NCBI RefSeq assembly: GCF_053078305.1
Contig: NZ_CP166879.1
Strand: one strand, 5' to 3'
Length of the DNA: 64,000 bases
This document shows positions 1 to 16,953 of the stretch, piece after piece. Numbering within the stretch: position 1 is the first letter of the stretch; each line of letters opens with the position of its first letter. The translations under genes were made by a program, and so were the position numbers. The notes under the pieces are model-generated. The model saw only the letters and a list, made by a program, of their open reading frames with translations, was not told where the DNA came from and did no database searches.

Positions 1-150
1 ACCCGTGGGGCCAATCAGTTTTACAGCGTCATGGAACGGCTGAAGATGCTCGATTCCCTGCAGGCAACACAGCTTCAGTCGGCCATTGTTAAAGCCATTT
101 ATGTCTATCATCTCCCCGTAGTTGTCCGCATCGTTCGCCAACTCCACTGA
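1..150 (+). CDS. B: phage portal protein (lambda gpB-like), upstream part; 5' partial at window edge and interrupted after codon at nt 96, then 18 foreign codons to a stop
   Basis: Frame 1 reads ...FYSVMERLKMLDSLQATQLQSAIVKA, continuous with MYAATIESELD at 11936; matches remembered lambda portal. Confidence 0.75.
   Translation, partial: TRGANQFYSVMERLKMLDSLQATQLQSAIVKAIYVYHLPVVVRIVRQLH
91..98. other. left junction core repeat AAAGCCAT (putative attL core; extended 12/13 match to nt 103)
   Basis: Identical 8-mer at 11930-11937 exactly where the portal reading frame is broken and resumed. Confidence 0.6.
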
Positions 151-227
151 AACCCTTGCTGCGGCTGGAATGTCGTTTTCCATACTTTTGATGACCGTTC
201 ATCACACTTCCAGGTTTTCGCGGTTTT

Positions 228-280
228 GTGTATTGCAATGTGTATTGCAAATTGGCGATCGGGATGGGTGTGTATTGCAA
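228..280 (+). repeat. three direct copies of GTGTATTGCAA upstream of int (putative arm-type recombinase binding sites)
   Basis: Copies at 228-238, 240-250, 270-280; two more copies at 11835-11857 near the right end. Confidence 0.55.
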
Positions 281-298
281 ATCTCTTGAGGGCTGTTA

Positions 299-1540
299 AT
301 GGCTATTGAAAACAAACTCAGTGACAAACTGTTAAAGAGTCTTGTCGGAAAACGGCAGGACAAACAAAAAACAATAGCGGATGGGCGCGGGTTGTCTGTG
401 CGTGTAAGCATGGTTGGGGGGATCAGCTTTGTTTTTTACTATCGTCTTGGTGGCAGGGAATCCCCTCCGGTATGGCTTACACTTGGGCGCTATCCTGATA
501 TGTCTCTTGCAACAGCCAGGCGCATGCGTGATCAGTGCCGTGAGTGGCTGGCTGAAAATCTGGACCCCCGCAGGCAAATAAAACTTGCCGCCGAAAAAAC
601 CATGCAACCAGTGACCGTAAGGGATGCGCTGTTTTACTGGTACGACAATCACGCCACAACAGCCAGAAAAGAGCATGAATATTTAATAAAACGATTTGAA
701 AAGCATATCTTCCCCTATATCGGTGATATGGCTATAGAACAGTGCAAATTACACACATGGCTTGCCGTCTTTGACAGGATCAAAAAAAATGCGCCTGTTA
801 TGTCTGGTGCAATTTTTCTTGATATCAAACAGGCGTTGCGTTTTTGTCGCGTCAGGCAATACATCGCGTGCGATCCCTTTGGCGATATTAACGTAAGTTA
901 TGTCGGGCGCTCATCCGGTATAAGGGATCGCGTTCTTAATATCAATGAAACAGCGGATGTATGGTCTTATGCTTACGGTAATAATTTGCTGACACTGTCA
1001 TCAATACATAACAGAAGAATAATGGTTATCTGCCTGGTGTTTGGTTGCCGTCAGCAGGAGGCGAGGTTATCCACATGGGACGAATGGGATTTAAAAAACT
1101 GGGTATGGACAGTCCCAAAAGAGCACAGCAAAAACAAGGAGGCCATAGTAAGGCCTGTTCCTGACGGCATAAAACAATGGCTCGTTAATCTTTACGCAGA
1201 AACAAAAAATCGCGGTTATGTTGTCGGTTGTGCTTTGCAAAGGGCGACAATAACAGGGGCTGCAAACAGAATATGCAGGCGTCTTGGTCATGATATTAAT
1301 GGCTTGTGGTGCATACATGATTTCAGGCGCACATTTTCCACTGCGCTTAATGATATGGGGGCGGATCCTTATATTGTCGAACTTCTTTTAGGTCATAAAG
1401 TGAAAGGGGTTGCCGGTGTTTACAATAAAAGCAGGCATATAAAGAAAAAACTTGAGGTGCTTAATATGTGGGTTAATTACCTTAATACGATAGCAGGATT
1501 TAACAACAACGTTATCGAGCTTAATAAAGAGGTGGTGTGA
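299..1540 (+). CDS. int: tyrosine-type site-specific integrase (P4-like family)
   Basis: 413 aa; N-terminal arm-binding-like region, C-terminal HDFRRT...LLGH...GVAGVY catalytic motifs; position at element end. Confidence 0.85.
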   Translation: MAIENKLSDKLLKSLVGKRQDKQKTIADGRGLSVRVSMVGGISFVFYYRLGGRESPPVWLTLGRYPDMSLATARRMRDQCREWLAENLDPRRQIKLAAEKTMQPVTVRDALFYWYDNHATTARKEHEYLIKRFEKHIFPYIGDMAIEQCKLHTWLAVFDRIKKNAPVMSGAIFLDIKQALRFCRVRQYIACDPFGDINVSYVGRSSGIRDRVLNINETADVWSYAYGNNLLTLSSIHNRRIMVICLVFGCRQQEARLSTWDEWDLKNWVWTVPKEHSKNKEAIVRPVPDGIKQWLVNLYAETKNRGYVVGCALQRATITGAANRICRRLGHDINGLWCIHDFRRTFSTALNDMGADPYIVELLLGHKVKGVAGVYNKSRHIKKKLEVLNMWVNYLNTIAGFNNNVIELNKEVV

Positions 1541-1541
1541 T

Positions 1542-1799
1542 ATGGCAATTTATTCTCTTGTTGATGAAAACGATTTGCGCACAATGAAGGACATTGATCG
1601 GTTCATTCGTGAAAAAGAGTGCATAGCACTTACCACGCTGGCAAACTCAACACGCTGGAAAATGGAGCAGGCAGGTAAATTCCCGCGACGTATCAAGATC
1701 GGTGAACGTGCGGCAGGGTATCGACTTTCAGAGGTTCAGGCATGGATCCGTGGTGAGTGGCATCCTGGATGGAAACCTGGAAAAACAAAACAGCAATAA
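1542..1799 (+). CDS. alpA: AlpA-family phage transcriptional regulator / excisionase-like HTH protein
   Basis: 85 aa, overlaps int stop, pattern typical of AlpA (CP4-57 regulatory protein) family. Confidence 0.7.
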   Translation: MAIYSLVDENDLRTMKDIDRFIREKECIALTTLANSTRWKMEQAGKFPRRIKIGERAAGYRLSEVQAWIRGEWHPGWKPGKTKQQ

Positions 1800-1853
1800 C
1801 CAGTAAATAACGCCCCTCATCAAGAGGGGTTTTTGTCTATAGGGTAAAACGCG

Positions 1854-2432
1854 ATGAATAAAAATATTGCCGTGACGGGCAAGGGGTACGCTCGTCCAGT
1901 GAAAAAATTCTGTGATATTCGTGATCTTGTCGTTCTGCGCTTTGATGGTGTGAGCGTTCGCGTGGTGTATGTGAACGGCGATCCGTGGTTTGTTGCCGTT
2001 GACGTGTGCGCTGCGCTGGAAATTGTTGATCACAAGGTTGCGTTACGCCGTCTCGATGATGATGAAAAGGGGGAGTGTTTAATACCCACCCCAGGTGGAA
2101 ATCAAACAATGCGAACGGTATGCGAGTCAGGGTTCTACAAACTAATCGCCAGAAGTCGGAAAGCTGTTACTCCTGGCACGTTCGCCCGTCGTTTCAGTAA
2201 CTGGGTATTCAGAAATGTGATACCAGGTATCAGAAAAACGGGGGCTTATGGTATCCCGTGGGGGGCATTACAGGATTTTTCCCGCCGTAAAGAGCAATAT
2301 CAAATAAGTGCCAGCGAGAAGGGGAGGGAGCTACAGGCATGTAAGCGCAAAAAACGTGAACTGGAGGAAGAAGAAAAAAGGCTGATACGTGAATATCAGC
2401 CTGAGTTTTACTTTGGTGAGCGTATTCAGTAA
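1854..2432 (+). CDS. Bro-N domain protein (phage antirepressor-like)
   Basis: 192 aa; N-terminal FDGVSVRVVYVNGDPWFVAVDVCAALEI resembles Bro-N/antirepressor domain. Confidence 0.55.
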   Translation: MNKNIAVTGKGYARPVKKFCDIRDLVVLRFDGVSVRVVYVNGDPWFVAVDVCAALEIVDHKVALRRLDDDEKGECLIPTPGGNQTMRTVCESGFYKLIARSRKAVTPGTFARRFSNWVFRNVIPGIRKTGAYGIPWGALQDFSRRKEQYQISASEKGRELQACKRKKRELEEEEKRLIREYQPEFYFGERIQ

Positions 2433-2770
2433 CCACACGCGGTGCTGATTATACGGTACATCGTGTTAACCGAGAAGCTACCCACCAGCAAGGCAAAATC
2501 TTCTGCTAAAAAATGACATATGGCCAGTCGTCCGGAAAGCATGAAATTTTACAAAAATGGAAAATGAAGATTTTTATTGTGCTGGTGGGTAAAAACAAAA
2601 AGCGCCCCGTTGCCGGAGCGCCCTTGTGAACAATTAACCTGCTGCGAAAAAATTGGATCAGTGCAGGGAAATTATATCAACTGTGTGAAGAAGCGCCACA
2701 ATTGCCAGTTTAGCTTTGCGGCGAACGCGTCAATAAAGAATATTCTTTCTTTAAATTCTGTTTGTGTATT

Positions 2771-2800
2771 TTTTCGTAGTTTTTCGTAGTTTTTCGTAAG
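2771..2800. repeat. tandem repeat TTTTTCGTAG x3
   Basis: Three perfect 10-bp units in the intergenic gap between convergent genes. Confidence 0.6.
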
Positions 2801-2895
2801 GAGAAAGAGCGGCGCGTATGCACCGCTAAGGAGTTTATTTTCATGACTTATGCAGCTTTCAATCTTAGCACCGCCGTAGCTGGTGGACAAGGCTA

Positions 2896-3123
2896 TCAGC
2901 CAGGCGGTCGGTTTTTAGTGGCTTTTAACCGCCGTGGGTATTTCTCGACAAAATCTTCAAGGGCAAATTTTTCTGGTGGCACTAAGCGCGGCGCTGGTGG
3001 TGGTATTTTTGTTCTGGTTAGTTCTTCCTCAAGTCTGGCGCAGGCTTCTAACTGCCTTTGCCGGATGATTTCATCATCTTGCGTTTGCGTGTCTTGTATT
3101 GGTGATAGTGTGTTGTTGGTCAT
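2896..3123 (-). CDS. hypothetical protein
   Basis: 75-aa ORF co-directional with RHH gene; preferred over overlapping low-complexity + strand ORF. Confidence 0.35.
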   Translation of the reverse strand: MTNNTLSPIQDTQTQDDEIIRQRQLEACARLEEELTRTKIPPPAPRLVPPEKFALEDFVEKYPRRLKATKNRPPG

Positions 3124-3180
3124 GATACTGCCCTGTAAAGCAATGCGCCGGAGTACCTCACGCCACGGCGCTGATAGTGA

Positions 3181-3486
3181 TTATTCTGATTCTTGGGTCT
3201 TGCGACGCTGGAGTTCTTCGCGTGCAACGGTGACAAGTTGCCCGATTTCTTCCGCTGCTTTGATGCCGATTTGTTCGACCTTAGCCAGAGCATCCAGTGA
3301 AGACACAAGGGGATTTTCTCCGCTGCCTTCTGCCTGGCGGCGGGCGATTTCACCGCGCATGGCGGTTACTATGAATCCGGCGTTGCTTTCACCGTCCAGT
3401 TTTACGGATTCCATGCCTTCAATAACATCATGCGGGATCCGAGCTGTCAGTGATTGTGATTTTGCGTTTTTTGAACCTGTAGCCAT
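3181..3486 (-). CDS. ribbon-helix-helix (CopG/Arc-like) DNA-binding protein, putative element repressor
   Basis: SLTARIPHDVIEGMESV beta-strand/helix pattern; ATG at 3486 with GAGAGGA RBS; divergent from rightward operon. Confidence 0.5.
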   Translation of the reverse strand: MATGSKNAKSQSLTARIPHDVIEGMESVKLDGESNAGFIVTAMRGEIARRQAEGSGENPLVSSLDALAKVEQIGIKAAEEIGQLVTVAREELQRRKTQESE

Positions 3487-3700
3487 CTGTAATCCTCTCA
3501 ATGAAAGTGTAAGACAATATACACATAAAAAGTCTTACATAAAAGCATTGACATGTAAGCCACCTATAAATAAAGTTACTTACACCTTGTTAATGCAAGG
3601 TGCAGAAACGACGAAACCCGGCAGTGCGCTAACACTAACCGGGCTTCTAACCACCAACGATAGAAAGCGTATCGAGGTAGCTATGAGAAATCATACCACA
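3487..3700. promoter_or_regulatory. divergent promoter/operator region with repeated TGTAAGACA / GTCTTACAT / ACATGTAAG motifs
   Basis: AT-rich intergenic region between leftward RHH gene and rightward operon, repeated half-sites. Confidence 0.45.
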
Positions 3701-4045
3701 CACCCGCAAGGGCGGGACTCGCACAACCTGAATAAATACATCTGGCGTTTTCTGGCCCGAAAAAACCAGTTGATCGCCAGTGTCGAAAATAGCTATGATT
3801 CCCGCGCACCTCATAAAACGGGTGCCGGGATTGGCGTCCTGGGCAAAACTGAAGCGCATAACACGCGCCCCGCGTGTTTTTTTGTGCCGCATAGTCACAC
3901 CTTATCAATGGTGGGCTGTACGGGGGCGGAGCAATCCGCGCCGGTTTCTTCAGTGTCCGGTTACGCCAACCCTGTACAGTCCGCCACCAGCGAAATTGGC
4001 GTTTCCGGTGGCGGTTATCTTAACCACACTGAGGAGGCTGCCAAC

Positions 4046-4237
4046 ATGGCTACTATCCCTACCCTTGTACATTCTCAAACCGCCTTTCTCTGGCGCTTTA
4101 TCATCTTTGGCGCGTCAGACCATCAAATCATCCACGTCACCGCCTGGACGGAACGCGAAGCGCGTAGCCGTTGCCCGTCCGGTTGTGTTGCTGTATTCGC
4201 CGCCCGTATTCGTCAGGAGGTGTGCCATGTGCAATAA
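4046..4237 (+). CDS. Icd-like small protein (P4 cell-division-inhibitor family), tentative
   Basis: 63 aa, GAGGAGG RBS at 4031-4037; resembles remembered Icd-like proteins of P4-type elements. Confidence 0.4.
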   Translation: MATIPTLVHSQTAFLWRFIIFGASDHQIIHVTAWTEREARSRCPSGCVAVFAARIRQEVCHVQ

Positions 4238-4484
4238 AACCACACCGGACGCAGCCGCCGCGCTCACTACACTGATGCACGCGCTGATTGATATTTCTGT
4301 TATTGCTGACAGGGCGCATAAGCACGCCACCAGTGAAACAGAATATGCCGGGGCTTTCGTTCCTCATTCGCTGGCGGTTATGCAACTTAGTGCTGATATG
4401 GCGCTGAATGAGGCCAAAGCTATCCTGATTTCTGATTGTGAAAATGGGGGGGGGTTATGCGTGATGATCGTTTTAATGCCCTGA
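4227..4484 (+). CDS. hypothetical protein
   Basis: ATG overlapping previous stop, CAGGAGG RBS; operon context. Confidence 0.45.
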   Translation: MCNKTTPDAAAALTTLMHALIDISVIADRAHKHATSETEYAGAFVPHSLAVMQLSADMALNEAKAILISDCENGGGLCVMIVLMP

Positions 4485-4678
4485 AACAGGAGTTTGATGG
4501 TGCGCCTGATGATGCAGGTGATGCGCTTTCGTCAATATCCGAACTGATAAGAGTGGCCTTTTTCTTACTTGGCACGAAAGAATATAAATCAACTGGAATA
4601 GACGTACTGAATATTACTGCTGATTATGCGGAATATATGGCAGAAGTGGATTTAAGAAAGATAACGGACAGGGGGTAA
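4457..4678 (+). CDS. hypothetical protein
   Basis: 73 aa, G-rich RBS upstream, overlaps previous gene end. Confidence 0.45.
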   Translation: MRDDRFNALKQEFDGAPDDAGDALSSISELIRVAFFLLGTKEYKSTGIDVLNITADYAEYMAEVDLRKITDRG

Positions 4679-4679
4679 T

Positions 4680-4913
4680 ATGCGTGATATTTACCACGAA
4701 ACAATAGACCGCGCATTTAGTGCCCTTGCTTACGCTGAAGGTATGTACGAAATATTGCAAATGTGTCTGGAAACATTTGGCGATAATGAGCGTGATGTAA
4801 AGAAGGCGCGGATTATTAAATCACTGATAACTCTCCTTGAACCTGTAATAACAGAGTTGCAGGAAATAGACTTATTGCACGACAGATATAACGAACAGCA
4901 CACCGGAGAATAA
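4680..4913 (+). CDS. hypothetical protein
   Basis: 77 aa, AGGGGG RBS, tightly packed operon. Confidence 0.45.
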   Translation: MRDIYHETIDRAFSALAYAEGMYEILQMCLETFGDNERDVKKARIIKSLITLLEPVITELQEIDLLHDRYNEQHTGE

Positions 4914-4918
4914 AAATA

Positions 4919-5218
4919 ATGAAACTTAAATATCCTGGCTTAACTGCCAGTGGCAACACTCACCCTAAATTTACGCGCGGTGATATTTACCGCGACCAGT
5001 ACGGCGGCACGGTAATGATTAAGGGCGTGGCGGGACGGTGCGTAACTTACCGCCGTGAAGGCTACGAATATGATTGCGTGATGCCTGTTTATCAGTTCCG
5101 GCGTGATTTTTCTCTGGTACAGACCGCGCCGCATAACGTGCCCACCAGCAACGCCAGGGCACGGGCAAACATCCAGAAGCTGAAAACCATGATTAACGGA
5201 TTCAGGGGTAAAAAATGA
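4919..5218 (+). CDS. hypothetical protein
   Basis: 99 aa, GGAG RBS, stop overlaps next start. Confidence 0.45.
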   Translation: MKLKYPGLTASGNTHPKFTRGDIYRDQYGGTVMIKGVAGRCVTYRREGYEYDCVMPVYQFRRDFSLVQTAPHNVPTSNARARANIQKLKTMINGFRGKK

Positions 5219-6624
5219 AACTGGCACCGAACGTAAAACGATTACCGAAAGATAAATACACCGAAGCGGTTATTTTTGCGGGTATTGATGCTCACTCATT
5301 CGCAGAGCATTACATCATTGCACAGGCCAAAAAAGCAGGCGATCCAGTCCCTCCCGTTTATCTGGGGCGTTATCAGTTAAGCGAACTGGATAACCTCCAG
5401 ATTGTTGATGATGGGCGATACAGGGCGACGGTGATACGCGCCGGAAATATTGAAGAGCCGCAGCTGTTAACCATCGCCACGAAACTGGCGAGCGCCGGAG
5501 TCCAGGAGGCGCGGCTACTTTCTGAAAATTTCGAATTGCTGGAGGAATGGAGCGACCAGCTTCCACGGCTTAGGGAGGCATGGGAACGCGGGGAAAGCCT
5601 GGTCATGAAAAAAATTCCCCAGCGAAAAACCACGCTACCGATGAGCGTTGGATCTACCGGATACGACACACAGCTTGATTACGTGGTAAAGGGGATTATT
5701 CCGGCATCGTCGCTTTGCAGCATATACGGGGCGAGCGGTTCCTATAAATCATTCCTTGCCGGATCGTGGGCGTGTCACGTTTCCACGGGCCGCCAGTGGG
5801 GAGGCCGCAGGGTGGCGCATGGCGCTGTTCTCTATGTGGTTGGTGAAGGCGGTATCGGCGTTCCGCGTCGTGTAAAAGCCTGGGAGGTTGTGCACGGTGA
5901 GCAGGTGAAAAATCTGTATCTGGTAAACCGTCCCATCTTTCCGGCTGTCCCGCTTGATGTTGATGAACTGGTTATTGCTGCCAGTCAGGTGGAGAGGGAA
6001 ACGGGTAAACCTGTTCGCATGATTATTCTGGACACGCTGGCGCGTTGCTTTGGCGGCAATGATGAAAATGACTCCCGCGACATGGGGGCATTTATCCGTG
6101 GTTGTGACGAGCTTAAACGGCGCACAGGGGCTACGGTGCTGGTGGTTCACCATTCCGGCAAGGATGAAACAAAGGGGGCGCGTGGTTCCAGTGCATTTCG
6201 TGCATCACTGGACGCTGAATACCGGATACGCAGGGAGGACGCAGGAAGCGAAGCGCTGGTTATCTCATGCACCAAAATGAAGGACGCGGAGGAACTCAAA
6301 GAGGCTGCCTATGATTTGCGGGTGGTGGAGCTTTTTACCGACGCTGACGGGGAGTTAATTACGTCGCTGGTGGTGGTGGATAAGCCGCGCCCTCCCGTTG
6401 AACTGGAGCGCATCGAGGAGGCAGGCAACAAGACGGAAAACCATACCGCGCTATGGGGGTGCATCCGTTCACGCACACAGAACGGCGACAAGTGCACGAT
6501 CCCGCTGTTACGTGACGATATGAAAAAGCTGGGGTATGACACAAAACACCTTAAACGATGGTTAGCCAAACTGGAAAAAGACGACGTGATCTACATTGAC
6601 GGTGATGATGTAGGACCACTGTAA
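5215..6624 (+). CDS. replication initiation protein, RecA-like ATPase (AAA_25/RepA-type) with C-terminal DNA-binding domain
   Basis: 469 aa; Walker A-like GASGSYKS, Walker B MIILD, LVVHHSGKD motif; iterons immediately downstream. Confidence 0.7.
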   Translation: MKLAPNVKRLPKDKYTEAVIFAGIDAHSFAEHYIIAQAKKAGDPVPPVYLGRYQLSELDNLQIVDDGRYRATVIRAGNIEEPQLLTIATKLASAGVQEARLLSENFELLEEWSDQLPRLREAWERGESLVMKKIPQRKTTLPMSVGSTGYDTQLDYVVKGIIPASSLCSIYGASGSYKSFLAGSWACHVSTGRQWGGRRVAHGAVLYVVGEGGIGVPRRVKAWEVVHGEQVKNLYLVNRPIFPAVPLDVDELVIAASQVERETGKPVRMIILDTLARCFGGNDENDSRDMGAFIRGCDELKRRTGATVLVVHHSGKDETKGARGSSAFRASLDAEYRIRREDAGSEALVISCTKMKDAEELKEAAYDLRVVELFTDADGELITSLVVVDKPRPPVELERIEEAGNKTENHTALWGCIRSRTQNGDKCTIPLLRDDMKKLGYDTKHLKRWLAKLEKDDVIYIDGDDVGPL

Positions 6625-6830
6625 AAAGTGGGCATTAAAAGTGGGAAAGGTGGGCGATTTAACGTAATTTTAACAAAATCACCCACTTTCCCACGTGTAT
6701 ATATCCCAAAAAGTGGGCACTAAAAAAATACCTATGAAACAAGATGATATAAATCCCAAACTTCCCACGTTGGACGAAGTGGGAAAACGTAAAAAGTGGG
6801 CGAAAAAAGTGGGTAGAGGTGGGCGAATGA
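6625..6830. repeat. iteron array, putative replication origin of the satellite
   Basis: About ten copies of AAGTGGG(C/A) / GGTGGGCGA in both orientations directly downstream of the rep gene. Confidence 0.7.
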
Positions 6831-7078
6831 CTCAAAAACACAGAGACAGAACAGAGCCAAAATATAAAGCGTTAGACATGACAGAGCACGCTTTAAAGGT
6901 GGCAATCAGGGTAATAGACCGCCACACGCGGGAAGGATACGCGAAGGAACATCCCGACCTGATAAGCGCATTCATGACCACAGCGGCGGCAAACTTTGCC
7001 ACGCTGACAGAACGGGAGATAGCCGAAGCGGAACAGGTAACAACCATCAACGTTAAAACCGGAGAGGTGGAATCATGA
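6827..7078 (+). CDS. hypothetical protein
   Basis: 83 aa from ATG at 6827 (upstream part of track ORF lies in the iterons). Confidence 0.45.
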   Translation: MTQKHRDRTEPKYKALDMTEHALKVAIRVIDRHTREGYAKEHPDLISAFMTTAAANFATLTEREIAEAEQVTTINVKTGEVES

Positions 7079-7485
7079 CAGCACAGATAGCCGCTTACGG
7101 GCGGCTGGTGGACGACCCGCAGGTAAAACAAACCAGCAAGGGCACACCGATGACGCTGGCGCGTATGGCGGTATCTCTGCCATGCAGCCAGGCACAGGAC
7201 GGGCAGGCTACGTTATGGCTATCAGTGATGGCATTTGGTAAGCAGGCCGACTTCCTGGCTAAACATCAAAAAGGCGATGTTGCCAGCGTATCCGGCACGA
7301 TGCAGGTAAGCCAGTGGACCAGACAGAACGGGGAAACGCGGCAGGGTTATCAGGTTATTGCAGACAGTGTAATCAGTGCCCGTGCTGCCCGTCCTGGCGG
7401 GAGCAGACGTACAACCACAGGCACACAGGGTAATCAGCCACCAGCGGGAGGCGATGACCCTTACGGTGACGGTATTCCGTTCTGA
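7075..7485 (+). CDS. ssb: single-stranded DNA-binding protein
   Basis: OB-fold pattern and acidic C-terminal tail DDPYGDGIPF typical of SSB. Confidence 0.75.
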   Translation: MTAQIAAYGRLVDDPQVKQTSKGTPMTLARMAVSLPCSQAQDGQATLWLSVMAFGKQADFLAKHQKGDVASVSGTMQVSQWTRQNGETRQGYQVIADSVISARAARPGGSRRTTTGTQGNQPPAGGDDPYGDGIPF

Positions 7486-7495
7486 GGGGGTGACG

Positions 7496-7768
7496 ATGGT
7501 ACATGACCGCATAGCGGAGGAACTCGAGGCAAAAGGCTTTTACCGGAGGGCGGCGGCGCGATGGGGTGAAGTTATGCAGCTGGTGGAGACAGACAAGGAA
7601 CGGCATCAGGTTACGATGCGACGGCTGGAATGTTCCAGGAAGGCACAGAGGCCACCGGAGCCGCCGGATAACTTCGGAGACCTGAAAAAAGCAGTAGATC
7701 GCACTTATGCCGAAATGGGTATGGATGGTGTAAGCGATGAAATATGGCGTAATTACCCAGACAGCTAA
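7496..7768 (+). CDS. PerC-family transcriptional regulator
   Basis: 90 aa; IAEELEAKGFYRRAAARW motif resembles PerC family. Confidence 0.5.
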   Translation: MVHDRIAEELEAKGFYRRAAARWGEVMQLVETDKERHQVTMRRLECSRKAQRPPEPPDNFGDLKKAVDRTYAEMGMDGVSDEIWRNYPDS

Positions 7769-7774
7769 TCAACA

Positions 7775-7796
7775 GCCGGAGAAATCCGGCTTTTTT
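7775..7796 (+). terminator. rho-independent terminator (GCCGGAGAAATCCGGC + T-run)
   Basis: Perfect hairpin then TTTTTT; identical hairpin recurs at 10049-10071. Confidence 0.65.
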
Positions 7797-8007
7797 GTAC
7801 CCAAAAAAAGCCCGATAAGTACAGGAGGCATCTTATCGGGCTTTTGCATATGAGGTTTTTTTGGTGCACTGACACACATGATCGGGGTAATCATTTCATA
7901 ATTTGCAACACAACTCAACATCATTGCACAAAATGCAATCCTGATTATAATCAGAGCTGGATGAACATCCAGTTCTGATTTTTTAAGTCAAAGAGGAATT
8001 TCTTACT

Positions 8008-8214
8008 ATGGCTGAAGAGAAAAAAGGCGGTGTTTCGGTGTACATAAGCCCCGAAATCGTGGAGGTGCTCAAGCAGCGCCACAAAAAAAACTATGAGGCT
8101 GGCGTAGCGGCTGGACTGGATCCGCTGATGACGCCGGAGCCGTCGATAGGTTCACTTGTGCGCTCTTATTTACTTGCGGCGCTTGGGATGCATAAAAATT
8201 ATGGTGGTGAATAA
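8008..8214 (+). CDS. hypothetical protein
   Basis: 68 aa, AAGAGG RBS, first gene of capsid operon. Confidence 0.45.
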   Translation: MAEEKKGGVSVYISPEIVEVLKQRHKKNYEAGVAAGLDPLMTPEPSIGSLVRSYLLAALGMHKNYGGE

Positions 8215-9269
8215 TGACAGTAAAAGCAATGGCACTTACAACTAACCAGCTTTTCGCGTACCTGAATCGCGGGGATATTGCAGAATTTAAATTCAGTCCG
8301 CTGTTTACCACGCTGTTTTTCCCGAACGTGGCGACCTTCAACACCCAGAACATCATGCTGGACACCCTGGACATTGAAGAGGTTACGATGTCAGCGTTCT
8401 GTTCGCCTATGGTGGGTAGTCAGGTCCAGCGCGATAAAGGGTACGAAACCAGCACGATTAAACCAGGCTACATGAAACCCAAACACGAAATCGATCCAAC
8501 AAAAACCATCATGCGCATGGCTGGAGAAGATCCGGCACAGCTTAACGACCCTACCTACCGCCGTATGCGCCTGATTACTGGCAACATGCGCCGCCAGATA
8601 AACGCCATTAAAGCGCGCGTGGAATGGCTGGCGGTGAATGCGATAACGACCGGAAAAAACATCATTGAGGGCGAAGGCATAGAACGCTATGAAATCGACT
8701 GGAAAATACCGGAAAACTGCATCATAGAGCAGGCCAAGGGTAAAAAATGGTCCGAGCATGATAAAGATATTTACGATCCAATCTATGACATCGAACTATA
8801 CGCAGATCAGGCAGGTTGCCCCGCCAACGTCATGATTATGGGCGCTGAGGTATGGCGCACGTTACGCAGCTTTAAAAAATTCCGCGAACTGTACGATCTT
8901 TCCCGTGGTTCAGAATCCGCCGCAGAACTGGCCTGTAAAAACCTGGGTGAAGTAGTGAGCTTTAAAGGCTATCTGGGCGATATTGCCCTTATCGTCTATT
9001 CCGGCAAATACACTGACAGCGACGGTACCGAAAAATATTTCCTTGAGCCTGATTTGCTGGTCCTGGGTAACACCAACAATAAAGGGCTGGTGGCCTATGG
9101 TGCGATTATGGATCAGGAAGCGGTAAGAACGGGCGCAACGCAAAACATGTTCTACCCGAAAAACTGGATTGAAGACGGCGATCCGGCGATTGAGTACGTT
9201 CAGACGCACAGCGCACCGCAGCCGGTACCGGCAGATATTCGCAAATTTGTTACCGTCAAAATTGCTTAA
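8214..9269 (+). CDS. major capsid protein, lambda gpE-like paralog encoded by the satellite
   Basis: 351 aa; clear similarity to helper E at 14646-15674 (PGYVKPKHE, EDPAQLNDP, VVSFKGY, VLGNT motifs). Confidence 0.85.
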   Translation: MTVKAMALTTNQLFAYLNRGDIAEFKFSPLFTTLFFPNVATFNTQNIMLDTLDIEEVTMSAFCSPMVGSQVQRDKGYETSTIKPGYMKPKHEIDPTKTIMRMAGEDPAQLNDPTYRRMRLITGNMRRQINAIKARVEWLAVNAITTGKNIIEGEGIERYEIDWKIPENCIIEQAKGKKWSEHDKDIYDPIYDIELYADQAGCPANVMIMGAEVWRTLRSFKKFRELYDLSRGSESAAELACKNLGEVVSFKGYLGDIALIVYSGKYTDSDGTEKYFLEPDLLVLGNTNNKGLVAYGAIMDQEAVRTGATQNMFYPKNWIEDGDPAIEYVQTHSAPQPVPADIRKFVTVKIA

Positions 9270-9280
9270 CGGGGGATTCT

Positions 9281-9616
9281 ATGGACACTCCATACATTGA
9301 GTTATTTGCAGGCAGTCAGCAGGTATCCACGACGCTGGTACATTTTGCCGCTGATGCTGGCGTTATTCAGGAATTTACCCCGCTGATGCTGGCGGACAAT
9401 GGCGAGTTTAAGCCGTGGGATGGTCAGGAATCTGGCAAGGCTGTTTATCTGACCTCGTACCCCGTGGACACGTCAAAGCAGAAATCAGCACAGTGTTACA
9501 AGACGGGGATATTTAATATCGCCGCCGTAAACTGGCCTGAGAGCGCCGACACTGACGCGAAAAAATGCGCCGCCTTTGCGGGTTCTGGCGTATCCGTTCA
9601 GCCGCTGGCGCGATAA
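9281..9616 (+). CDS. head decoration protein, lambda gpD-like paralog
   Basis: 111 aa; TPLMLA...WDGQ...YKSG/TGIF...WPES...AFAG pattern shared with helper D at 14241-14588. Confidence 0.75.
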   Translation: MDTPYIELFAGSQQVSTTLVHFAADAGVIQEFTPLMLADNGEFKPWDGQESGKAVYLTSYPVDTSKQKSAQCYKTGIFNIAAVNWPESADTDAKKCAAFAGSGVSVQPLAR

Positions 9617-9628
9617 GCAGGGGAAACG

Positions 9629-10042
9629 ATGGCAACGAATGAAAGCATCATGGCGCTACCGCTGGCGAGTAAATTTAAAGCAGAAGCGCGGGCAATGGCT
9701 GACAGAGGTTTATCAACCTACGAGGCCGTATATCAACTCAACAAACTGGAAGAGCAGGACAAGCCGCGCGCTGATGCGATTATGGCGCTTCATGAACATA
9801 ACGACTATCAGCCGCTGTTACGTGCAATGGCAAACGTGCCATGTATTAGCGTCGATAATGCTCGTGAAATCCTGAACATGACCATAGAGCAGGAGCGCCC
9901 AAAGGTTGCGCCGGAGCTTACCGCAGCCTTTGAAAACTTTATGGACATGCACAGCCCGAAAGCCGTATCACCCGGCATGGCATACGACGGCAGAAACCAG
10001 GGCGATGAAGGCGACGTCGATCGCATACTGAAAACCATCTGA
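9629..10042 (+). CDS. scaffold protein, Nu3-like (scaffold domain only, no protease domain)
   Basis: 137 aa; C-terminus AAFENFMDMHSPKAV...DEGDVD parallels helper C/Nu3 C-terminus ALFEHFMANHSPAAV...ADGDAD. Confidence 0.65.
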   Translation: MATNESIMALPLASKFKAEARAMADRGLSTYEAVYQLNKLEEQDKPRADAIMALHEHNDYQPLLRAMANVPCISVDNAREILNMTIEQERPKVAPELTAAFENFMDMHSPKAVSPGMAYDGRNQGDEGDVDRILKTI

Positions 10043-10048
10043 CATAAG

Positions 10049-10071
10049 GCCGGAGAAATCCGGCTTTTTTT
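10049..10071 (+). terminator. rho-independent terminator after capsid operon
   Basis: GCCGGAGAAATCCGGC hairpin followed by TTTTTTT. Confidence 0.65.
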
Positions 10072-10130
10072 ACGGGTCCTTTCCGGCATATGGACCCGTT
10101 ACGGGGCGGCGACCTCGCGGTTTTTCGCTA
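10072..10130 (+). other. cos site 1 (cosN GGGCGGCGACCT at 10104-10115 with cosQ-like and cosB-like flanks), rightward orientation
   Basis: Exact lambda 12-nt cohesive-end sequence and lambda-like flanks ACGGGTCCTTTCCGG...CGCGGTTTTTCGCTATTTATGA. Confidence 0.8.
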
Positions 10131-10248
10131 TTTATGAGCTTTTTTCGGGTGCTGGTGGTGGTTTTGTTGTTCGCTCTATCTCTATGAATAAAAAGGGAAA
10201 GATAAAACCAATACACCAACCTGAAACATTACTTAAGTGGGGATATTG

Positions 10249-10791
10249 ATGAAATCGCACCTGATGAACAAAAAAAACATGGCGCAAAGCTGCCGTGTAA
10301 GTGCGACAGCGTTCGACAAGTGGGGAGTGACTCCCGTTGAACGTAAAGGACGCGAGGCTTTTTACGATGTTGCCAGCGTGATAGACAATCGGGTAAGCAA
10401 TGCAATTAACCAGGTTACAAACGACAAAGGCGAGATTGATGATGATGAACTCTTACGAGTCAGGATCAGATTACTGACCGCCCAGGCTGAGGCGCAGGAA
10501 CTTAAAAACGAGCGCGATCGCGGTGACGTAATTGATACTGAGTTTTGCCTGTACGCGCTTTCAAAGCTGGCGAGTCAGATTTCTTCAATCATGGACAGTT
10601 TGCCGCTTACCATGCAAAGGCGCTTCCCGCAGATTACTCCCGCTATGCTGGATGGGCTTAAAAGGGAAGTGGTTAAAGCCTGTAATGCCAGTGCCACAGT
10701 TGCCGACAACCTCCCGAAGATACTGGCTGATTACCTGATGGAAACTACCGGAGACGTACCGGAGAAGTTGCTACAGAAGAAAGGCGAGTAA
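10249..10791 (+). CDS. terminase small subunit, lambda Nu1-like
   Basis: LTAQAEAQELKNERDRGDVIDTEFCLYALSKLASQISSIMDSLPLTMQRRFP parallels remembered lambda Nu1; start uncertain (10237/10249/10264). Confidence 0.75.
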   Translation: MKSHLMNKKNMAQSCRVSATAFDKWGVTPVERKGREAFYDVASVIDNRVSNAINQVTNDKGEIDDDELLRVRIRLLTAQAEAQELKNERDRGDVIDTEFCLYALSKLASQISSIMDSLPLTMQRRFPQITPAMLDGLKREVVKACNASATVADNLPKILADYLMETTGDVPEKLLQKKGE

Positions 10792-10962
10792 CAGACGCGC
10801 AATTATTGAACAAAAGTAAGGCCCGACATGAAATCACCCAAAAATGCCTTTTTCATGCGTTTGTATGTCTGACCTTTTACGGTTTCGATATTATAAAAAA
10901 CAAATAGTTACGCTCGAGAGGTACCGACACGCATTTTTCAGGAAAATTTTCATAAACAGATA

Positions 10963-11015
10963 AAAACCGCGAGGTCGCCGCCCCGTAACGGGCCATAATT
11001 CCAGGAAGGACCCGA
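10963..11015 (-). other. cos site 2 (cosN reverse complement at 10972-10983), inverted relative to cos site 1
   Basis: AGGTCGCCGCCC plus lambda-like flanks on the minus strand. Confidence 0.75.
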
Positions 11016-11047
11016 CGACACCAGGCTATCAGAACGATGAGGGCACA

Positions 11048-11329
11048 ATGACAGAAGCCGAACTACTGGGATTAATCCGCTACGTTACCGGAATCAGCCA
11101 GCAGCATGACGAACAGGCCACGCAGCCGGACAGCGTGACCGCTGAAAATTATGCGCGTGTTGTTGCTGAGGTGATGCGCCGTGATGGTATCCAGCTTAAT
11201 GATGCAGATATGCGCGACATACGGATCCGCGTTCTTGAAATGCTGGCCTACCGTCGCCGCGTGCAGACGTACAGGGAAAAAGCAAAAATAACGTACCAGT
11301 GGAAGAAGCCGGAGCGATTACGGCGGTAA
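11048..11329 (+). CDS. hypothetical protein
   Basis: 93-aa ORF, last gene before the right junction. Confidence 0.4.
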   Translation: MTEAELLGLIRYVTGISQQHDEQATQPDSVTAENYARVVAEVMRRDGIQLNDADMRDIRIRVLEMLAYRRRVQTYREKAKITYQWKKPERLRR

Positions 11330-11834
11330 CTTGCTGATATTCCCGATAACGCAAAATTGCGCTCTGTCCTAACCCGTTGATATTTTCGGGAACAGCCAAC
11401 GGCTGAGGCCGGAACAACGATTATCTTTCAGATAGTCAGAGCTACGAAATTTTCGTAGTTTAATTACTCGCCAGTTTATCGTTAACTCGTTGATATTTTC
11501 GGTAACCTCAATTTGAGGAGATCGGAAACATAACCCTTCACATTCTGAATGGTTATAATGACCACTCAGACCATCAAGGCAACCATAACGAACATCGTTA
11601 CGGTTGGAGCTTTTACCCCACTGGGGGGAAGGTGCACATCTGGATCATCATTACCGTGATCAAGGGTATGTAAAACCCACCAGCCTGATTAACTGTTAAC
11701 CGGAAAAAAGCCAGGTAGCCAATCTCGATATGGGGATCCCCATATCGACATTAACGCCCCCTAGAACTGCGCATATCTGCATATAAAAACATCCACCAGC
11801 TTTATGACGGATGCCGCTCATCTGATAAATAATC

Positions 11835-11857
11835 GTGTATTGCAATGTGTATTGCGA
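11835..11857 (+). repeat. two direct copies of GTGTATTGCAA/GTGTATTGCGA near right end (arm-type sites)
   Basis: Same motif as the triplet at 228-280. Confidence 0.55.
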
Positions 11858-11929
11858 CTCCTTTAAACGATAGGTTTGAGCATTCGTAATGTACTGTTTT
11901 TAAATTTTATTTTTTCCTGTCTTTTCATA

Positions 11930-11937
11930 AAAGCCAT
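11930..11937. other. right junction core repeat AAAGCCAT (putative attR core)
   Basis: Identical to 91-98; portal frame resumes here. Confidence 0.6.
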
Positions 11938-12709
11938 GTATGCAGCGACGATTGAAAGTGAACTTGATACCGAAAAGGCCTTTGAATATATCGCCGGTGC
12001 GCCGCAGGGGCAGAAGGATAATCCGCTTATTAATATTCTGGATAAGTTCTCCACCTGGTATGACACGAATATCGTGACGCTGGGCGGTGTCAAAATTCCG
12101 CACCTTTTCCCCGGTGATGATCTGAAACTTCAGACCGCGCAGGATTCAGACAATGGATTTTCGGCGCTTGAACAGGCGCTGCTGCGGTATATCGCCGCCG
12201 GTCTTGGCGTTTCCTACGAACAGTTGTCCCGTGATTACTCGAAGGTCAGTTATTCAAGTGCCCGCGCCTCCGCCAATGAGTCGTGGCGCTATTTTATGGG
12301 ACGACGAAAATTTATTGCAGCCCGGCTGGCCACGCAGATGTTTTCCTGCTGGCTGGAAGAGGCACTTCTTCGGGGGATTATCCGTCCGCCACGGGCACGT
12401 TTTGATTTTTATCAGGCGCGTTCAGCCTGGTCGCGGGCAGAGTGGATTGGCGCAGGAAGAATGGCCATTGACGGGCTCAAGGAGGTCCAGGAATCAGTGA
12501 TGCGCATTGAGGCCGGACTGAGCACGTATGAGAAAGAGCTGGCGCTGATGGGTGAGGATTATCAGGACATTTTCCGCCAGCAGGTCAGGGAATCCGCAGA
12601 GCGGGAAAAAGCCGGACTCTCACGTCCGGTGTGGATAGCGCAGGCGTATCAGCAGCAGATAGCAGAGAGCCGCAGGCCGGAAGAGGAGACAACACCACGT
12701 GAGACGTAA
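11930..12709 (+). CDS. B: phage portal protein (lambda gpB-like), downstream part resuming after the insertion
   Basis: KAMYAATIESELD...YIAAGLGVSYEQLSR...MAIDGLKEVQE resembles remembered lambda portal C-terminal half. Confidence 0.8.
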   Translation, partial: KAMYAATIESELDTEKAFEYIAGAPQGQKDNPLINILDKFSTWYDTNIVTLGGVKIPHLFPGDDLKLQTAQDSDNGFSALEQALLRYIAAGLGVSYEQLSRDYSKVSYSSARASANESWRYFMGRRKFIAARLATQMFSCWLEEALLRGIIRPPRARFDFYQARSAWSRAEWIGAGRMAIDGLKEVQESVMRIEAGLSTYEKELALMGEDYQDIFRQQVRESAEREKAGLSRPVWIAQAYQQQIAESRRPEEETTPRET

Positions 12710-16470: not shown

Positions 16471-16953
16471 ATGGCGATAAAAGGGCTTGATCAGGCGATT
16501 GATAATCTGAGCCGGGTTCGTAAAAACGCCATTCCTGCTGCTTCAGCAATGGCCATTAACCGCGTGGCCACAACGGCAATAAATCAGTCTGCGTCACAGG
16601 TTGCCCGTGAGACAAAGGTACGCCGGAAACTGGTAAAGGAAAGGGCCAGGCTGAAAAGGGCCACGGTAAAAAATCCGCAGGCCAGAATCAAAGTTAACCG
16701 GGGGGATTTGCCTGTAATCAGGCTGGGTAATGCGCGGGTTGTCCTGTCCCGACGCAGGCGACGTAAAAAGGGGCAGCGTTCATCCCTGAAAGGTGGCGGC
16801 AGTGTGCTTGTGGTGGGTAACCGTCGCATTCCCGGCGCGTTTATTCAGCAACTGAAAAATGGGCGGTGGCATGTCATGCAGCGTGTGGCCGGGAAAAACC
16901 GTTACCCCATTGATGTGGTAAAAATCCCGATGGCGGTGCCTGTAACCAGGTAA
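16471..16953 (+). pseudogene. Z: tail protein Z, upstream part truncated by Mu-like insertion (ends with 3 foreign codons)
   Basis: Matches remembered lambda Z to ...IPMAVP, then VTR-stop from inserted DNA; remainder found at 56278-56391. Confidence 0.8.

What the first reader, a model, noticed from the sequence alone, without database searches (positions are those of the whole stretch)
91..11937. Integrase-bearing satellite-like element inserted inside the portal gene of its likely helper prophage
The lambda-type portal ORF is split exactly in two: nt 1-96 encode ...QSAIVKA and the frame resumes with MYAATIESELD at 11936. Both junctions carry AAAGCCAT (91-98, 11930-11937; 12/13 over the extended site), the integrase lies just inside the left end and GTGTATTGCAA arm-like repeats sit near both ends. 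Recombination within the core would restore an intact portal ORF, so helper capsid assembly would be conditional on satellite excision. An att site inside a helper structural gene, rather than a tRNA or host gene, is not a standard arrangement for P4-like or PICI elements.
Basis: partly seen in the sequence, partly recalled or inferred. Interest (0 to 1): 0.92.

Follow-up and report, generated by a model that had tools for sequence, protein, structure and literature searches.

The report
Satellite embedded in helper phage's portal gene
An 11.8-kb phage satellite sits exactly inside the portal gene of a lambda-like prophage and would restore that gene when it cuts itself out, but this arrangement (a "helper-embedded PICI") was already described in 2023, at this same site.

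Summary
Window 1-98 and 11938-12709 are the two halves of a lambda-family portal gene. Joined in silico, they give one open frame. The joined junction is 100% identical to intact portal genes in three complete E. coli genomes. Between the halves lies an 11,839-bp satellite with int, alpA, a Bro-N protein, P4-type immunity RNAs, a RepA-type helicase, SSB, capsid, decoration and scaffold-like proteins, and cos plus terS. An 8-bp core, AAAGCCAT, sits at both ends.

Tommasini, Mageeney and Williams (2023, PMC10111431) described 491 helper-embedded PICIs at 14 sites in prophage late genes. One of those sites is this one, B:Phage_portal_2:241. They also reported the doubled TGTATTGC arm motif, and their catalogue includes a close relative of this element with the same core.

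New details here are minor:
- A second copy, differing at 2 of 11,831 nt, lies in a different portal allele of what is probably the same genome.
- The cargo matches chromosomal PICIs that carry other integrases.
- Two inverted cos sites flank terS.
- A 39-kb Mu-like prophage interrupts the helper's tail gene Z, so this helper is probably defective.

Verdict: already known, low interest.

The parts
1..98 (+). 5' part of the helper prophage portal gene (lambda B cognate), cut by the window start. The last intact codons are ...QSAIVKA.
   Evidence: 99% identical to the intact portal in L003. Pfam Phage_portal_2 on the intact homologue.
91..98 (+). attL core (identity block) AAAGCCAT
   Evidence: Same block as Eco14761.12.B_Phage_portal_2_241 in PMC10111431 Supp. 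Files 1, 3 and 4.
99..11937 (+). Helper-embedded PICI, 11,839 bp counting the core once. All identified genes are co-oriented with the portal gene. GC is 48.7% against 56.4% for the helper late genes.
227..278 (+). Arm-type repeats on the P' side. The doubled motif TGTGTATTGCAATGTGTATTGCA starts 132 nt after the core centre. A third TGTATTGC copy is at 271-278.
   Evidence: Same positions in L001 and L002. The published spacing is 132 +/- 2 nt.
299..1540 (+). Tyrosine integrase, 413 aa
   Evidence: phrog_1 at 1.6e-58. 53% identical to the 11capE integrase, against 41% to the integrase of a chromosomal PICI with the same cargo.
1542..1799 (+). AlpA-family excisionase and regulator, 85 aa
   Evidence: phrog_2790. 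67% identical to 11capE AlpA.
1854..2432 (+). Bro-N / anti-repressor-like protein (Bro zone)
   Evidence: phrog_2593 at 1.5e-78. RefSeq annotation of homologues.
3181..3501 (-). YlcI/YnfO-family small protein, one of two identified minus-strand ORFs (the other is the unassigned 75-aa ORF at 2896-3123)
   Evidence: phrog_6522. Annotation of homologues in L001, L002 and L004.
3806..3882 (+). isrK-type RNA (P4 seqA-like target/leader) with its terminator
   Evidence: Rfam RF01394, 66 bits against a gathering score of 50. Terminator at 3860-3878.
3904..3991 (+). C4 antisense RNA (P4 CI-type immunity RNA)
   Evidence: Rfam RF01695, 77.6 bits against a gathering score of 45.
4919..5218 (+). DUF4222-family small protein that precedes the replication gene
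   Evidence: phrog_285. Annotation of homologues.
5215..6624 (+). RepA-family helicase, 469 aa (replication zone)
   Evidence: phrog_2850 at 1e-222 and helicase/primase phrogs. Annotated 'helicase RepA family protein' in L004 and L005.
7075..7485 (+). Single-stranded DNA-binding protein
   Evidence: phrog_44 at 1e-38
7496..7768 (+). Small protein related to phage transcriptional activators. It corresponds to residues 41-130 of ORF 7376-7768, and the start codon was not determined.
   Evidence: phrog_994 and phrog_10396
8214..9269 (+). Satellite major capsid protein (lambda E family), 47% identical to the helper's E
   Evidence: phrog_29 at 1.4e-107
9281..9616 (+). Head decoration protein (lambda D family), 34% identical to the helper's D
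   Evidence: phrog_49
9629..10042 (+). Scaffold-like protein, related to the C-terminal (Nu3-like) part of the helper's protease/scaffold
   Evidence: phrog_1999 and phrog_53 at profile positions 494-567. 35% identical to residues 416-493 of the helper's 501-aa protein.
10073..10144 (+). Forward cos site. It contains the exact lambda cosN 12-mer GGGCGGCGACCT at 10104-10115, 121 nt upstream of terS.
10237..10791 (+). Satellite small terminase. Its C-terminal half is 48% identical to a helper-type TerS. Its N-terminal DNA-binding part gave no alignment.
   Evidence: phrog_57 at 8.8e-52
10943..11014 (-). Second cos site in inverted orientation (cosN at 10972-10983). The sequence next to it resembles the cosB region of a phage-21-type helper.
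11048..11329 (+). Conserved 93-aa protein of unknown function, the last gene of the element
   Evidence: phrog_1561 at 1.5e-55
11834..11856 (+). Arm-type repeats on the P side. The doubled motif CGTGTATTGCAATGTGTATTGCG ends about 78 nt before the core centre.
   Evidence: The published spacing is 81 +/- 2 nt.
11930..11937 (+). attR core AAAGCCAT
11938..12709 (+). 3' part of the helper portal gene, read from MYAATIESELD at 11936 (overlapping the core) to the stop
   Evidence: 96% identical to L003 from 11930 onward.

Best explanation
This is a helper-embedded phage-inducible chromosomal island (HE-PICI) of the published site group B:Phage_portal_2:241. It is an 11.8-kb satellite whose tyrosine integrase recombines its attP with a site in about codon 273 of the portal gene of lambda-like prophages. 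The attP has the core AAAGCCAT and is flanked by doubled TGTATTGC arm sites.

Shown:
- The portal gene is split while the satellite is integrated, and attP carries no replacement portal sequence. An intact portal can be made only after precise excision.
- The crossover lies in or next to the 8-bp core.
- The element moved recently. A second copy sits in a different portal allele.

Inferred:
- On induction of the composite, helper late transcription is made terminator-resistant by the Q antiterminator. It runs from Nu1-A-W-B' into the co-oriented int and alpA genes.
- Integrase and AlpA excise the satellite, which restores the portal gene.
- The satellite circle replicates with its RepA-type helicase and SSB.
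- It builds heads from its own capsid, decoration and scaffold-like proteins together with the helper's portal and protease.
- Its own TerS recruits the helper's large terminase to the satellite cos site.
- In the lysogen, a P4-type C4/isrK RNA system keeps the satellite quiet.

In this particular genome the helper also carries a Mu-like prophage in tail gene Z. Productive transfer would therefore probably need tails from another lambdoid phage.
For: Anatomy and empty site:
- Split ORF, in-silico join, and a 100%-identical empty site.

Recurrence:
- The same left junction plus int-alpA-bro is found at 94-97% identity in 59 of 5426 complete E. coli genomes. Every one of the 30 listed hits lies next to a phage portal gene, and the two loci examined in detail carry truncated portal halves.
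- All 25 public viral or metagenome contigs that hold the element's left end have portal sequence upstream at the same codon, across three portal alleles.

Match to the published family:
- PMC10111431 describes 491 HE-PICIs, names this site and this motif, and lists a close relative, Eco14761.12, with an 'aaagccat' block.
- Motif spacing agrees with the paper.
- The integrase is 53% and AlpA 67% identical to those of the founding element 11capE.
- The four-zone gene order is present.

Transcription:
- The scan found no +-strand terminator-like site between the portal fragment and int, or between the last satellite gene and the 3' portal half.

Packaging:
- cos lies next to terS. The TerS C-terminal half is conserved with a helper-type TerS.

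Recent mobility:
- L019 carries a copy that differs at 2 of 11,831 nt, inside a different portal allele. It comes from the same IMG genome as L020, which is 100% identical to window 1-1679.

Experiment in the literature:
- For 11capE at the capsid-gene site, the composite excised and replicated after mitomycin C, and then the satellite excised precisely.
Against: - No experiment exists for the portal-site group. Read-through transcription, the timing of excision and packaging are all inferred.
- The paper's authors could not recover infectious particles even for 11capE.
- No excised attP junction was found in public viral or metagenome contigs.
- None of 50,697 phage genome records holds the satellite's int module. 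Free satellite DNA has therefore not been seen for this group.
- Here the helper's gene Z is interrupted by a 39-kb Mu-like prophage, and the helper's left arm lies outside the window. This copy may be stranded.
- Many helpers of this family appear truncated (L001 and L002; also noted in the paper).
Confidence: 0.88

Rival explanations
1. Stranded fossil. The insertion was once made by site-specific integration, but in this genome the helper-satellite pair no longer functions. The helper is dead, so the split portal is a scar inherited vertically and not a working switch.
For: - A Mu-like prophage (16941-56278) truncates helper gene Z.
- Helpers in L001 and L002 lack recognisable early regions.
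- The paper notes that many HE-PICI helpers are truncated.
- No free attP junction was found in public contigs.
Against: - All satellite genes compared have the same length as their homologues (int, alpA, bro, repA, capsid, terS).
- A copy differing at 2 of 11,831 nt sits in a second, different portal allele of what appears to be the same genome. This argues for very recent integrase activity.
- The satellite could still be mobilised by another lambdoid phage.
Confidence: 0.25
2. Accidental (off-target) integration of an ordinary chromosomal PICI into a sequence that happens to lie in a portal gene.
For: - The cargo (about 2896-11762) is 85-94% identical to PICIs integrated next to roxA/phoQ and in tqsA.
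- The 8-bp core by itself is not statistically unusual.
Against: - The int-alpA-bro module and both att arms differ from those of the chromosomal relatives. The integrase is only 41% identical, and the TGTATTGC motif is absent from their ends.
- The same codon is used in 59 complete genomes and in 25 of 25 public contigs, across three portal alleles.
- The integrase is closer to that of the founding HE-PICI than to that of a chromosomal PICI, and the element matches the published portal-site group by its att sequences.
Confidence: 0.02
3. The segment is a native part of this portal region, or an assembly chimera, and not an insertion.
For: None beyond the fact that the window starts inside the portal gene.
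Against: - Thousands of intact portals have no insert. Three of them have a junction 100% identical to the in-silico join.
- The same nested structure appears in finished genomes.
- GC content steps from 48.7% in the element to 56.4% in the helper late genes.
Confidence: 0.01

Closest known systems
HE-PICIs of site group B:Phage_portal_2:241 (Tommasini, Mageeney & Williams 2023, NAR Genom Bioinform 5:lqad036; for example Eco14761.12.B_Phage_portal_2_241)
   Same: - Same target codon in the lambda-B-type portal.
- Same 8-bp identity block, 'aaagccat'.
- Very similar attL and attR (4 and 3 mismatches in the stretches compared by eye).
- Same doubled TGTATTGC motif and spacing.
- Same int-alpA-Bro module, and co-orientation with the late operon.
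- Same size class, about 12 kb.
   Different: - This is a different instance, because the att flanks differ by a few nucleotides.
- The other portal-site members I examined, L001 and L002, carry a primase-type replication gene and one cos site. This one has a RepA-type helicase and two inverted cos sites.
Eco567.11capE, the founding HE-PICI in the capsid gene E of prophage 50icd in E. coli NRG857c
   Same: - Nested in a lambdoid late gene, with the same zone order.
- Integrase 53% and AlpA 67% identical.
- The doubled motif is present near attL, with one exact core copy found near attR.
- Carries its own capsid and decoration genes.
   Different: - Different target gene (E:Phage_cap_E:80) and a different core.
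- 11capE lacks terS and carries HEPN and DUF262 genes.
- Only 11capE has experimental evidence of excision.
Chromosomal Gram-negative PICIs such as EcCICFT073 and the elements in E. coli RM14516 (roxA/phoQ site) and RM9245 (tqsA site)
   Same: - The cargo from about nt 2896 to 11762 is 85-94% identical to the RM14516 and RM9245 elements. It includes repA, ssb, capsid, decoration, scaffold-like, terS and the two inverted cos sites.
- int plus alpA lie at the left end.
   Different: - They integrate in chromosomal genes away from the helper, with a different integrase (41% identical).
- They have no TGTATTGC arm motif at their ends.
- The interaction with the helper is in trans only.
- EcCICFT073-type islands use Rpp instead of a full TerS.
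Satellite phage P4
   Same: - C4/isrK (CI/seqA-type) immunity RNAs.
- AlpA-type regulator.
- An integrase from the wider P4/PICI clade, according to the paper's tree.
   Different: - No Sid, Psu or Delta homologue was identified among the ORFs scanned against PHROGs. No targeted search was run.
- A RepA-type helicase stands in place of the P4 alpha primase-helicase.
- The helpers are lambdoid, not P2.
- Carries its own capsid gene.
Regulated gene integrity by excisable elements (the skin element in sigK, the SpyCI element in mutL, phage-mediated 'active lysogeny')
   Same: A gene is split by an integrated element and restored by precise excision.
   Different: Here the split gene belongs to another mobile element, the helper phage. 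The switch serves the satellite and not the cell.

Membership tests
HE-PICI (helper-embedded PICI) | Integrated inside a late gene of a prophage, interrupting it, and co-oriented with it | tested here: met
   The portal is split at about codon 273, and every satellite gene assigned a function is on the + strand.
HE-PICI (helper-embedded PICI) | attP carries no replacement copy of the target gene, so the gene is disrupted until excision | tested here: met
   The left fragment runs 18 codons into the satellite and stops. The satellite encodes no portal.
HE-PICI (helper-embedded PICI) | Doubled motif tgTGTATTGCantgTGTATTGCa, about 81 nt upstream and about 132 nt downstream of the attP centre | tested here: met
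   The motif ends 78 nt upstream of the centre and starts 132 nt downstream. It is absent from the ends of chromosomal PICIs with the same cargo.
HE-PICI (helper-embedded PICI) | Integrase belongs to the HE-PICI clade, in the subclade for the same site | tested here: inconclusive
   No phylogenetic tree was built. Pairwise, the integrase is 53% identical to the 11capE integrase and 41% to that of a chromosomal PICI. The int gene is 94-97% identical to those of other portal-embedded elements. attL and attR closely match a catalogued member of the site group.
HE-PICI (helper-embedded PICI) | Site type B:Phage_portal_2:241 (central att codon at position 241 of Pfam Phage_portal_2) | tested here: met
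   By sequence match to the catalogued attL and attR of that group. Pfam maps residues 29-397 of the intact portal to model positions 2-354, so residue ~273 falls near model position 241-246.
HE-PICI (helper-embedded PICI) | Precise excision after induction of the composite | not testable with these tools
   Shown only for 11capE in the literature. Indirect support here is a copy differing at 2 of 11,831 nt in a second portal allele.
Gram-negative PICI | About 10-15 kb; int plus alpA at one end, followed by Bro, replication and late zones; no tail or lysis genes | tested here: met
   The element is 11,839 bp.
Capsid-forming PICI (cf-PICI) | Encodes a full head and packaging set: capsid, protease, portal, head-tail connectors, TerS and TerL | tested here: not met
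   Only capsid, decoration, scaffold-like and TerS proteins were found. There is no portal, protease or TerL.
P4-like satellite | Sid/Psu/Delta capsid-size and transactivation genes, P4 alpha primase, P2-type helper | tested here: not met
   The C4/isrK RNAs and AlpA are shared. No ORF scanned against PHROGs was assigned to Sid, Psu, Delta or a P4 alpha primase, and no targeted search was run. The helper is lambdoid.

The most novel reading that the evidence does not exclude
The one feature I could not find described is the packaging region. terS is flanked by two exact lambda cosN sites in inverted orientation, within a 72-nt inverted repeat.
- The forward site abuts the satellite's own terS and has a satellite-type cosB.
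- The inverted site is followed by a cosB-like stretch. That stretch aligns with the cos region of a phage-21-type helper up to its terS start.
- The pair is conserved in chromosomal PICI relatives (L004, L005), but absent from other portal-embedded elements (L001, L002).

The novel reading is that the satellite keeps two alternative packaging entry points. One is served by its own TerS together with the helper's TerL. The other is served directly by a helper terminase of a different specificity. This would widen the range of lambdoid helpers that can package it.
Probability: 0.25. Interest if true: 0.45.

Novelty: already known. Interest (0 to 1): 0.2.

Why it matters
The arrangement is biologically interesting. 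A satellite holds an essential structural gene of its helper phage hostage and releases it only by excising. This couples helper assembly to the satellite's own life cycle and gives the satellite passive replication and late transcription in cis.

That idea, the integrase clade behind it, this exact portal site and the arm motif were all published in 2023, so the window adds no new principle. Its value is as a clean, apparently recently active example, with two copies differing at 2 of 11,831 nt in two different portal alleles. It could serve as an experimental model for the portal-site group, which has no functional data. It also shows that the integration module moves between PICI backbones.

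Tried and rejected
1. Excised circle. I searched for the attP junction with exact degenerate patterns in IMG/VR viral contigs and JGI metagenome contigs and found 0 hits. As a control, a pattern from the element's left end found 25 contigs, all in the integrated (attL) state. The negative is therefore real for assembled contigs, but it says nothing about induced cultures.

2. Phage genome records. None of 50,697 carries the int-alpA-bro module. Only nt 1-103 match, to intact portals. There is no evidence that the composite is packaged.

3. P4-like and cf-PICI membership. Both were considered and rejected.

4. Off-target integration and native segment or assembly artefact. Both were considered and rejected.

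5. Source genome. No record in the complete E. coli set covers >=80% of window 1-12000. The best match to the left module is 97.4%. The likely source is IMG genome 2617271340 (L020), whose organism I could not determine.

6. Target-site duplication of the Mu-like insertion. I could not define it cleanly. TGCC is duplicated exactly, and a 5-bp duplication would need one mismatch.

7. Literature on paired inverted cos sites in PICIs. A review of enteric-island cos sites, searched for 'inverted', 'two cos', 'second cos' and 'opposite orientation', has no such term. This is one search and one paper, not a full survey.

Full report
**1. The observation**

Frame 1 of window 1-96 encodes ...MERLKMLDSLQATQLQSAIVKA. 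It then continues 18 codons into unrelated sequence and stops at nt 148-150. At 11936 the frame resumes as MYAATIESELD and runs to a stop at 12709.

AAAGCCAT lies at 91-98 and 11930-11937, and the extended site matches at 12 of 13 positions. The 8-mer is not significant on its own, because a third copy lies at 29757. Its placement is what matters.

Joining 1-98 to 11938-12709 gives one uninterrupted ORF. A 219-nt joined junction is 100% identical to intact 'phage portal protein' genes in three complete E. coli genomes. It is covered at >=80% in 1853 of 5426 genomes. Against one such intact prophage (L003), the left flank aligns up to window 103 and the right flank from window 11930. The insertion and its breakpoints are confirmed.

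**2. What lies between the portal halves**

The insert is 11,839 bp with the core counted once. Its GC content is 48.7%, against 56.4% for the adjacent helper late genes. Every gene assigned a function below is on the + strand. The two minus-strand ORFs are marked.

| Coordinates | Feature | Evidence |
|---|---|---|
| 299-1540 | Tyrosine integrase | |
| 1542-1799 | AlpA-type excisionase/regulator | |
| 1854-2432 | Bro-N/anti-repressor-like protein | |
| 2896-3123 (minus strand) | 75-aa ORF, no family match | |
| 3181-3501 (minus strand) | YlcI/YnfO-family gene | |
| 3806-3882 | isrK RNA, 66 bits (above Rfam gathering score) | |
| 3904-3991 | C4 RNA, 77.6 bits (above Rfam gathering score) | |
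| 4457-5218 | Small ORFs, including a DUF4222 protein | |
| 5215-6624 | RepA-family helicase | |
| 7075-7485 | SSB | |
| ~7496-7768 | Small activator-like protein | |
| 8214-9269 | Major capsid protein, 47% identical to the helper's E | |
| 9281-9616 | Decoration protein, 34% identical to the helper's D | |
| 9629-10042 | Scaffold-like protein, related to the C-terminus of the helper's protease/scaffold | |
| 10237-10791 | Small terminase | |
| 11048-11329 | Conserved 93-aa protein, function unknown | |

The isrK and C4 RNAs are the P4 seqA/CI-type immunity pair. The small terminase is preceded by an exact lambda cosN 12-mer at 10104-10115. There is no portal, protease, large terminase, tail or lysis gene. 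This is a Gram-negative PICI-type satellite.

**3. It is a recurrent, site-specific arrangement**

- The left junction plus int-alpA-bro (1-2433) occurs at 94-97% identity in 59 of 5426 complete E. coli genomes. Every one of the 30 listed hits overlaps a 'phage portal protein' feature.
- Two examples (L001, L002) show the full nested structure between two portal pseudogene halves of lambdoid prophages.
- A pattern from the element's left end retrieved 25 contigs from IMG/VR and JGI metagenomes. In all 25 the upstream sequence is a portal gene at the same codon. Three portal alleles are represented. None is an attP junction or a non-phage site.

**4. It is already published**

A full-text search found Tommasini, Mageeney and Williams 2023 (PMC10111431). 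The paper defines helper-embedded PICIs (HE-PICIs).

- It reports 491 elements at 14 sites in cognates of lambda late genes.
- The integrases form one clade, with subclades that follow the site used.
- It describes the attP motif tgTGTATTGCantgTGTATTGCa, present twice, 81 +/- 2 nt upstream and 132 +/- 2 nt downstream of the attP centre.

In the reconstructed attP of this window, the upstream doubled motif ends 78 nt before the core centre. The downstream one starts 132 nt after it.

The supplement lists site group B:Phage_portal_2:241. One member, Eco14761.12, has the identity block 'aaagccat'. Its attL and attR differ from the window's by a few nucleotides. Pfam places residue ~273 of the intact portal near model position 241-246.

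The integrase is 53% identical to that of the founding element 11capE, and AlpA is 67% identical. The integrase of a chromosomal PICI with nearly the same cargo is only 41% identical. The TGTATTGC motif is present in L001, L002 and 11capE, but absent from the ends of the chromosomal relatives. I did not build an integrase tree, so formal clade placement remains inferred.

**5. Mechanism**

Shown by sequence:
- The portal is split and no replacement sequence is provided.
- Recombination in or beside the core restores the portal.

Shown in the literature, for 11capE only: after mitomycin C the whole composite excises and replicates, and then the satellite excises precisely. No infectious particles were obtained.

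Inferred here:
- The scan found no terminator-like site on the + strand between the portal fragment and int, nor between the last satellite gene and the 3' portal half. Q-modified late transcription from the helper should therefore read into int and alpA and trigger excision.
- The satellite then replicates with its RepA helicase and SSB.
- It assembles heads from its own capsid, decoration and scaffold-like proteins on the helper's restored portal.
- It uses its own TerS to bring the helper's TerL to the satellite cos. The C-terminal half of this TerS is 48% identical to a helper-type TerS, while the N-terminal DNA-binding part did not align.
- Because the satellite has no portal gene, its own packaging also depends on its excision.

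**6. What this instance adds**

(a) A second copy. L020 (IMGVR_UViG_2617271340_000015) is 100% identical to window 1-1679, so it probably comes from the source genome. L019 is from the same IMG genome. It carries a second copy whose body differs at 2 of 11,831 positions. That copy lies in a different, lambda-B-like portal allele. Its attL core is AAGGCGAT (target type) and its attR core is AAAGCCAT (element type). This places the exchange between core position 6 and the ninth position of the extended site. It is good evidence for recent integrase-mediated movement. The paper already reports genomes with several portal-site HE-PICIs and identity blocks as short as 'AT'.

(b) A mosaic element. 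Nt ~2896-11762 are 85-94% identical to PICIs at roxA/phoQ and in tqsA that carry other integrases. Nt 11670-11937 plus 1-2433 are shared with other portal-embedded elements. The integration module (att arms, int, alpA, bro) therefore moves as a unit between PICI backbones.

(c) Two inverted cos sites flank terS (see section 7).

**7. Things noticed in the surroundings**

- The helper's tail-completion gene Z is interrupted at 16940/16941 by a 39.3-kb Mu-like prophage that runs to 56278. It encodes a repressor, MuA, MuB, terminase, portal, capsid, sheath, a Gin-like invertase and a Mom-like protein. It is 96.8% identical to a region annotated as an inserted Mu-like phage in an Stx2c prophage record. 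U, V, T, H, M, L and I follow from 56388. The lambdoid prophage therefore carries two nested mobile elements and is probably not a competent helper on its own.
- A second exact cosN 12-mer lies inverted at 10972-10983, inside a 72-nt inverted repeat with the forward cos. Its flank aligns with the cos region of the 21-type helper in L002 up to the terS start. The pair is conserved in L004 and L005, but L001 and L002 have only the forward site.

**8. Verdict**

Novelty is 'already known' and interest is low (0.2). The most novel reading left open is that the paired inverted cos sites give the satellite two packaging specificities (probability about 0.25).

Noticed in passing
window 16941-56278: A 39.3-kb Mu-like transposable prophage is inserted in the helper's tail-completion gene Z (truncated ORF 16471-16953). 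It encodes a c repressor, MuA, MuB, terminase, portal, capsid, tail sheath, a Gin-like invertase and a Mom-like protein. The empty site in L001 and L002 reads GATGGCGGTGCCGCTGACCA. TGCC is duplicated at the ends. The region is 96.8% identical to an 'inserted Mu-like phage' region of Stx2c prophage record LC727881. The lambdoid prophage is therefore interrupted twice.
   Followed up: yes
window 10073-10144 and 10943-11014: Two exact lambda cosN 12-mers (GGGCGGCGACCT) in inverted orientation flank the satellite terS, within a 72-nt inverted repeat that is 82% complementary. The inverted copy is followed by sequence that aligns with the cos region of a phage-21-type helper up to its terS start. 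The pair is conserved in chromosomal PICI relatives L004 and L005 but absent from portal-embedded L001 and L002. This may provide dual packaging specificity.
   Followed up: partly
L019 1174-13143 (IMGVR_UViG_2617271340_000010) and L020 (IMGVR_UViG_2617271340_000015): L020 is 100% identical to window 1-1679. L019 is from the same IMG genome and holds a second copy of the satellite, differing at 2 of 11,831 nt, inside a different, lambda-B-like portal allele. Its attL core is AAGGCGAT and its attR core is AAAGCCAT. The crossover therefore lies to the right of core position 6. The integrase tolerates two mismatches in the 8-bp block.
   Followed up: yes
window 3806-3991: isrK (66 bits) and C4 antisense RNA (77.6 bits) lie side by side, both above Rfam gathering scores. 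They form a P4 CI/seqA-type RNA immunity module, in an approximately 950-nt stretch (3500-4450) for which no protein-coding gene was assigned.
   Followed up: partly
window ~2896-11762 compared with L004 and L005: The satellite's replication and late cargo is 85-94% identical to PICIs integrated at roxA/phoQ (RM14516) and in tqsA (RM9245), which carry unrelated int and alpA modules. Only the att arms plus int-alpA-bro are specific to the portal-embedded group. The integration module is therefore exchanged as a unit.
   Followed up: partly
window 271-278: A fifth TGTATTGC copy lies 30 nt beyond the downstream doubled motif. It is conserved at the same place in L001 and L002. The published description mentions only the two doubled motifs.
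   Followed up: no
L001 and L002 (E. coli GZEC065 and EC28): The helpers of these portal-embedded satellites lie at the same chromosomal locus, next to a BCCT transporter and MFS genes. They appear to lack an early region (no integrase or immunity genes are annotated), so these composites may be inherited vertically as remnants.
   Followed up: no
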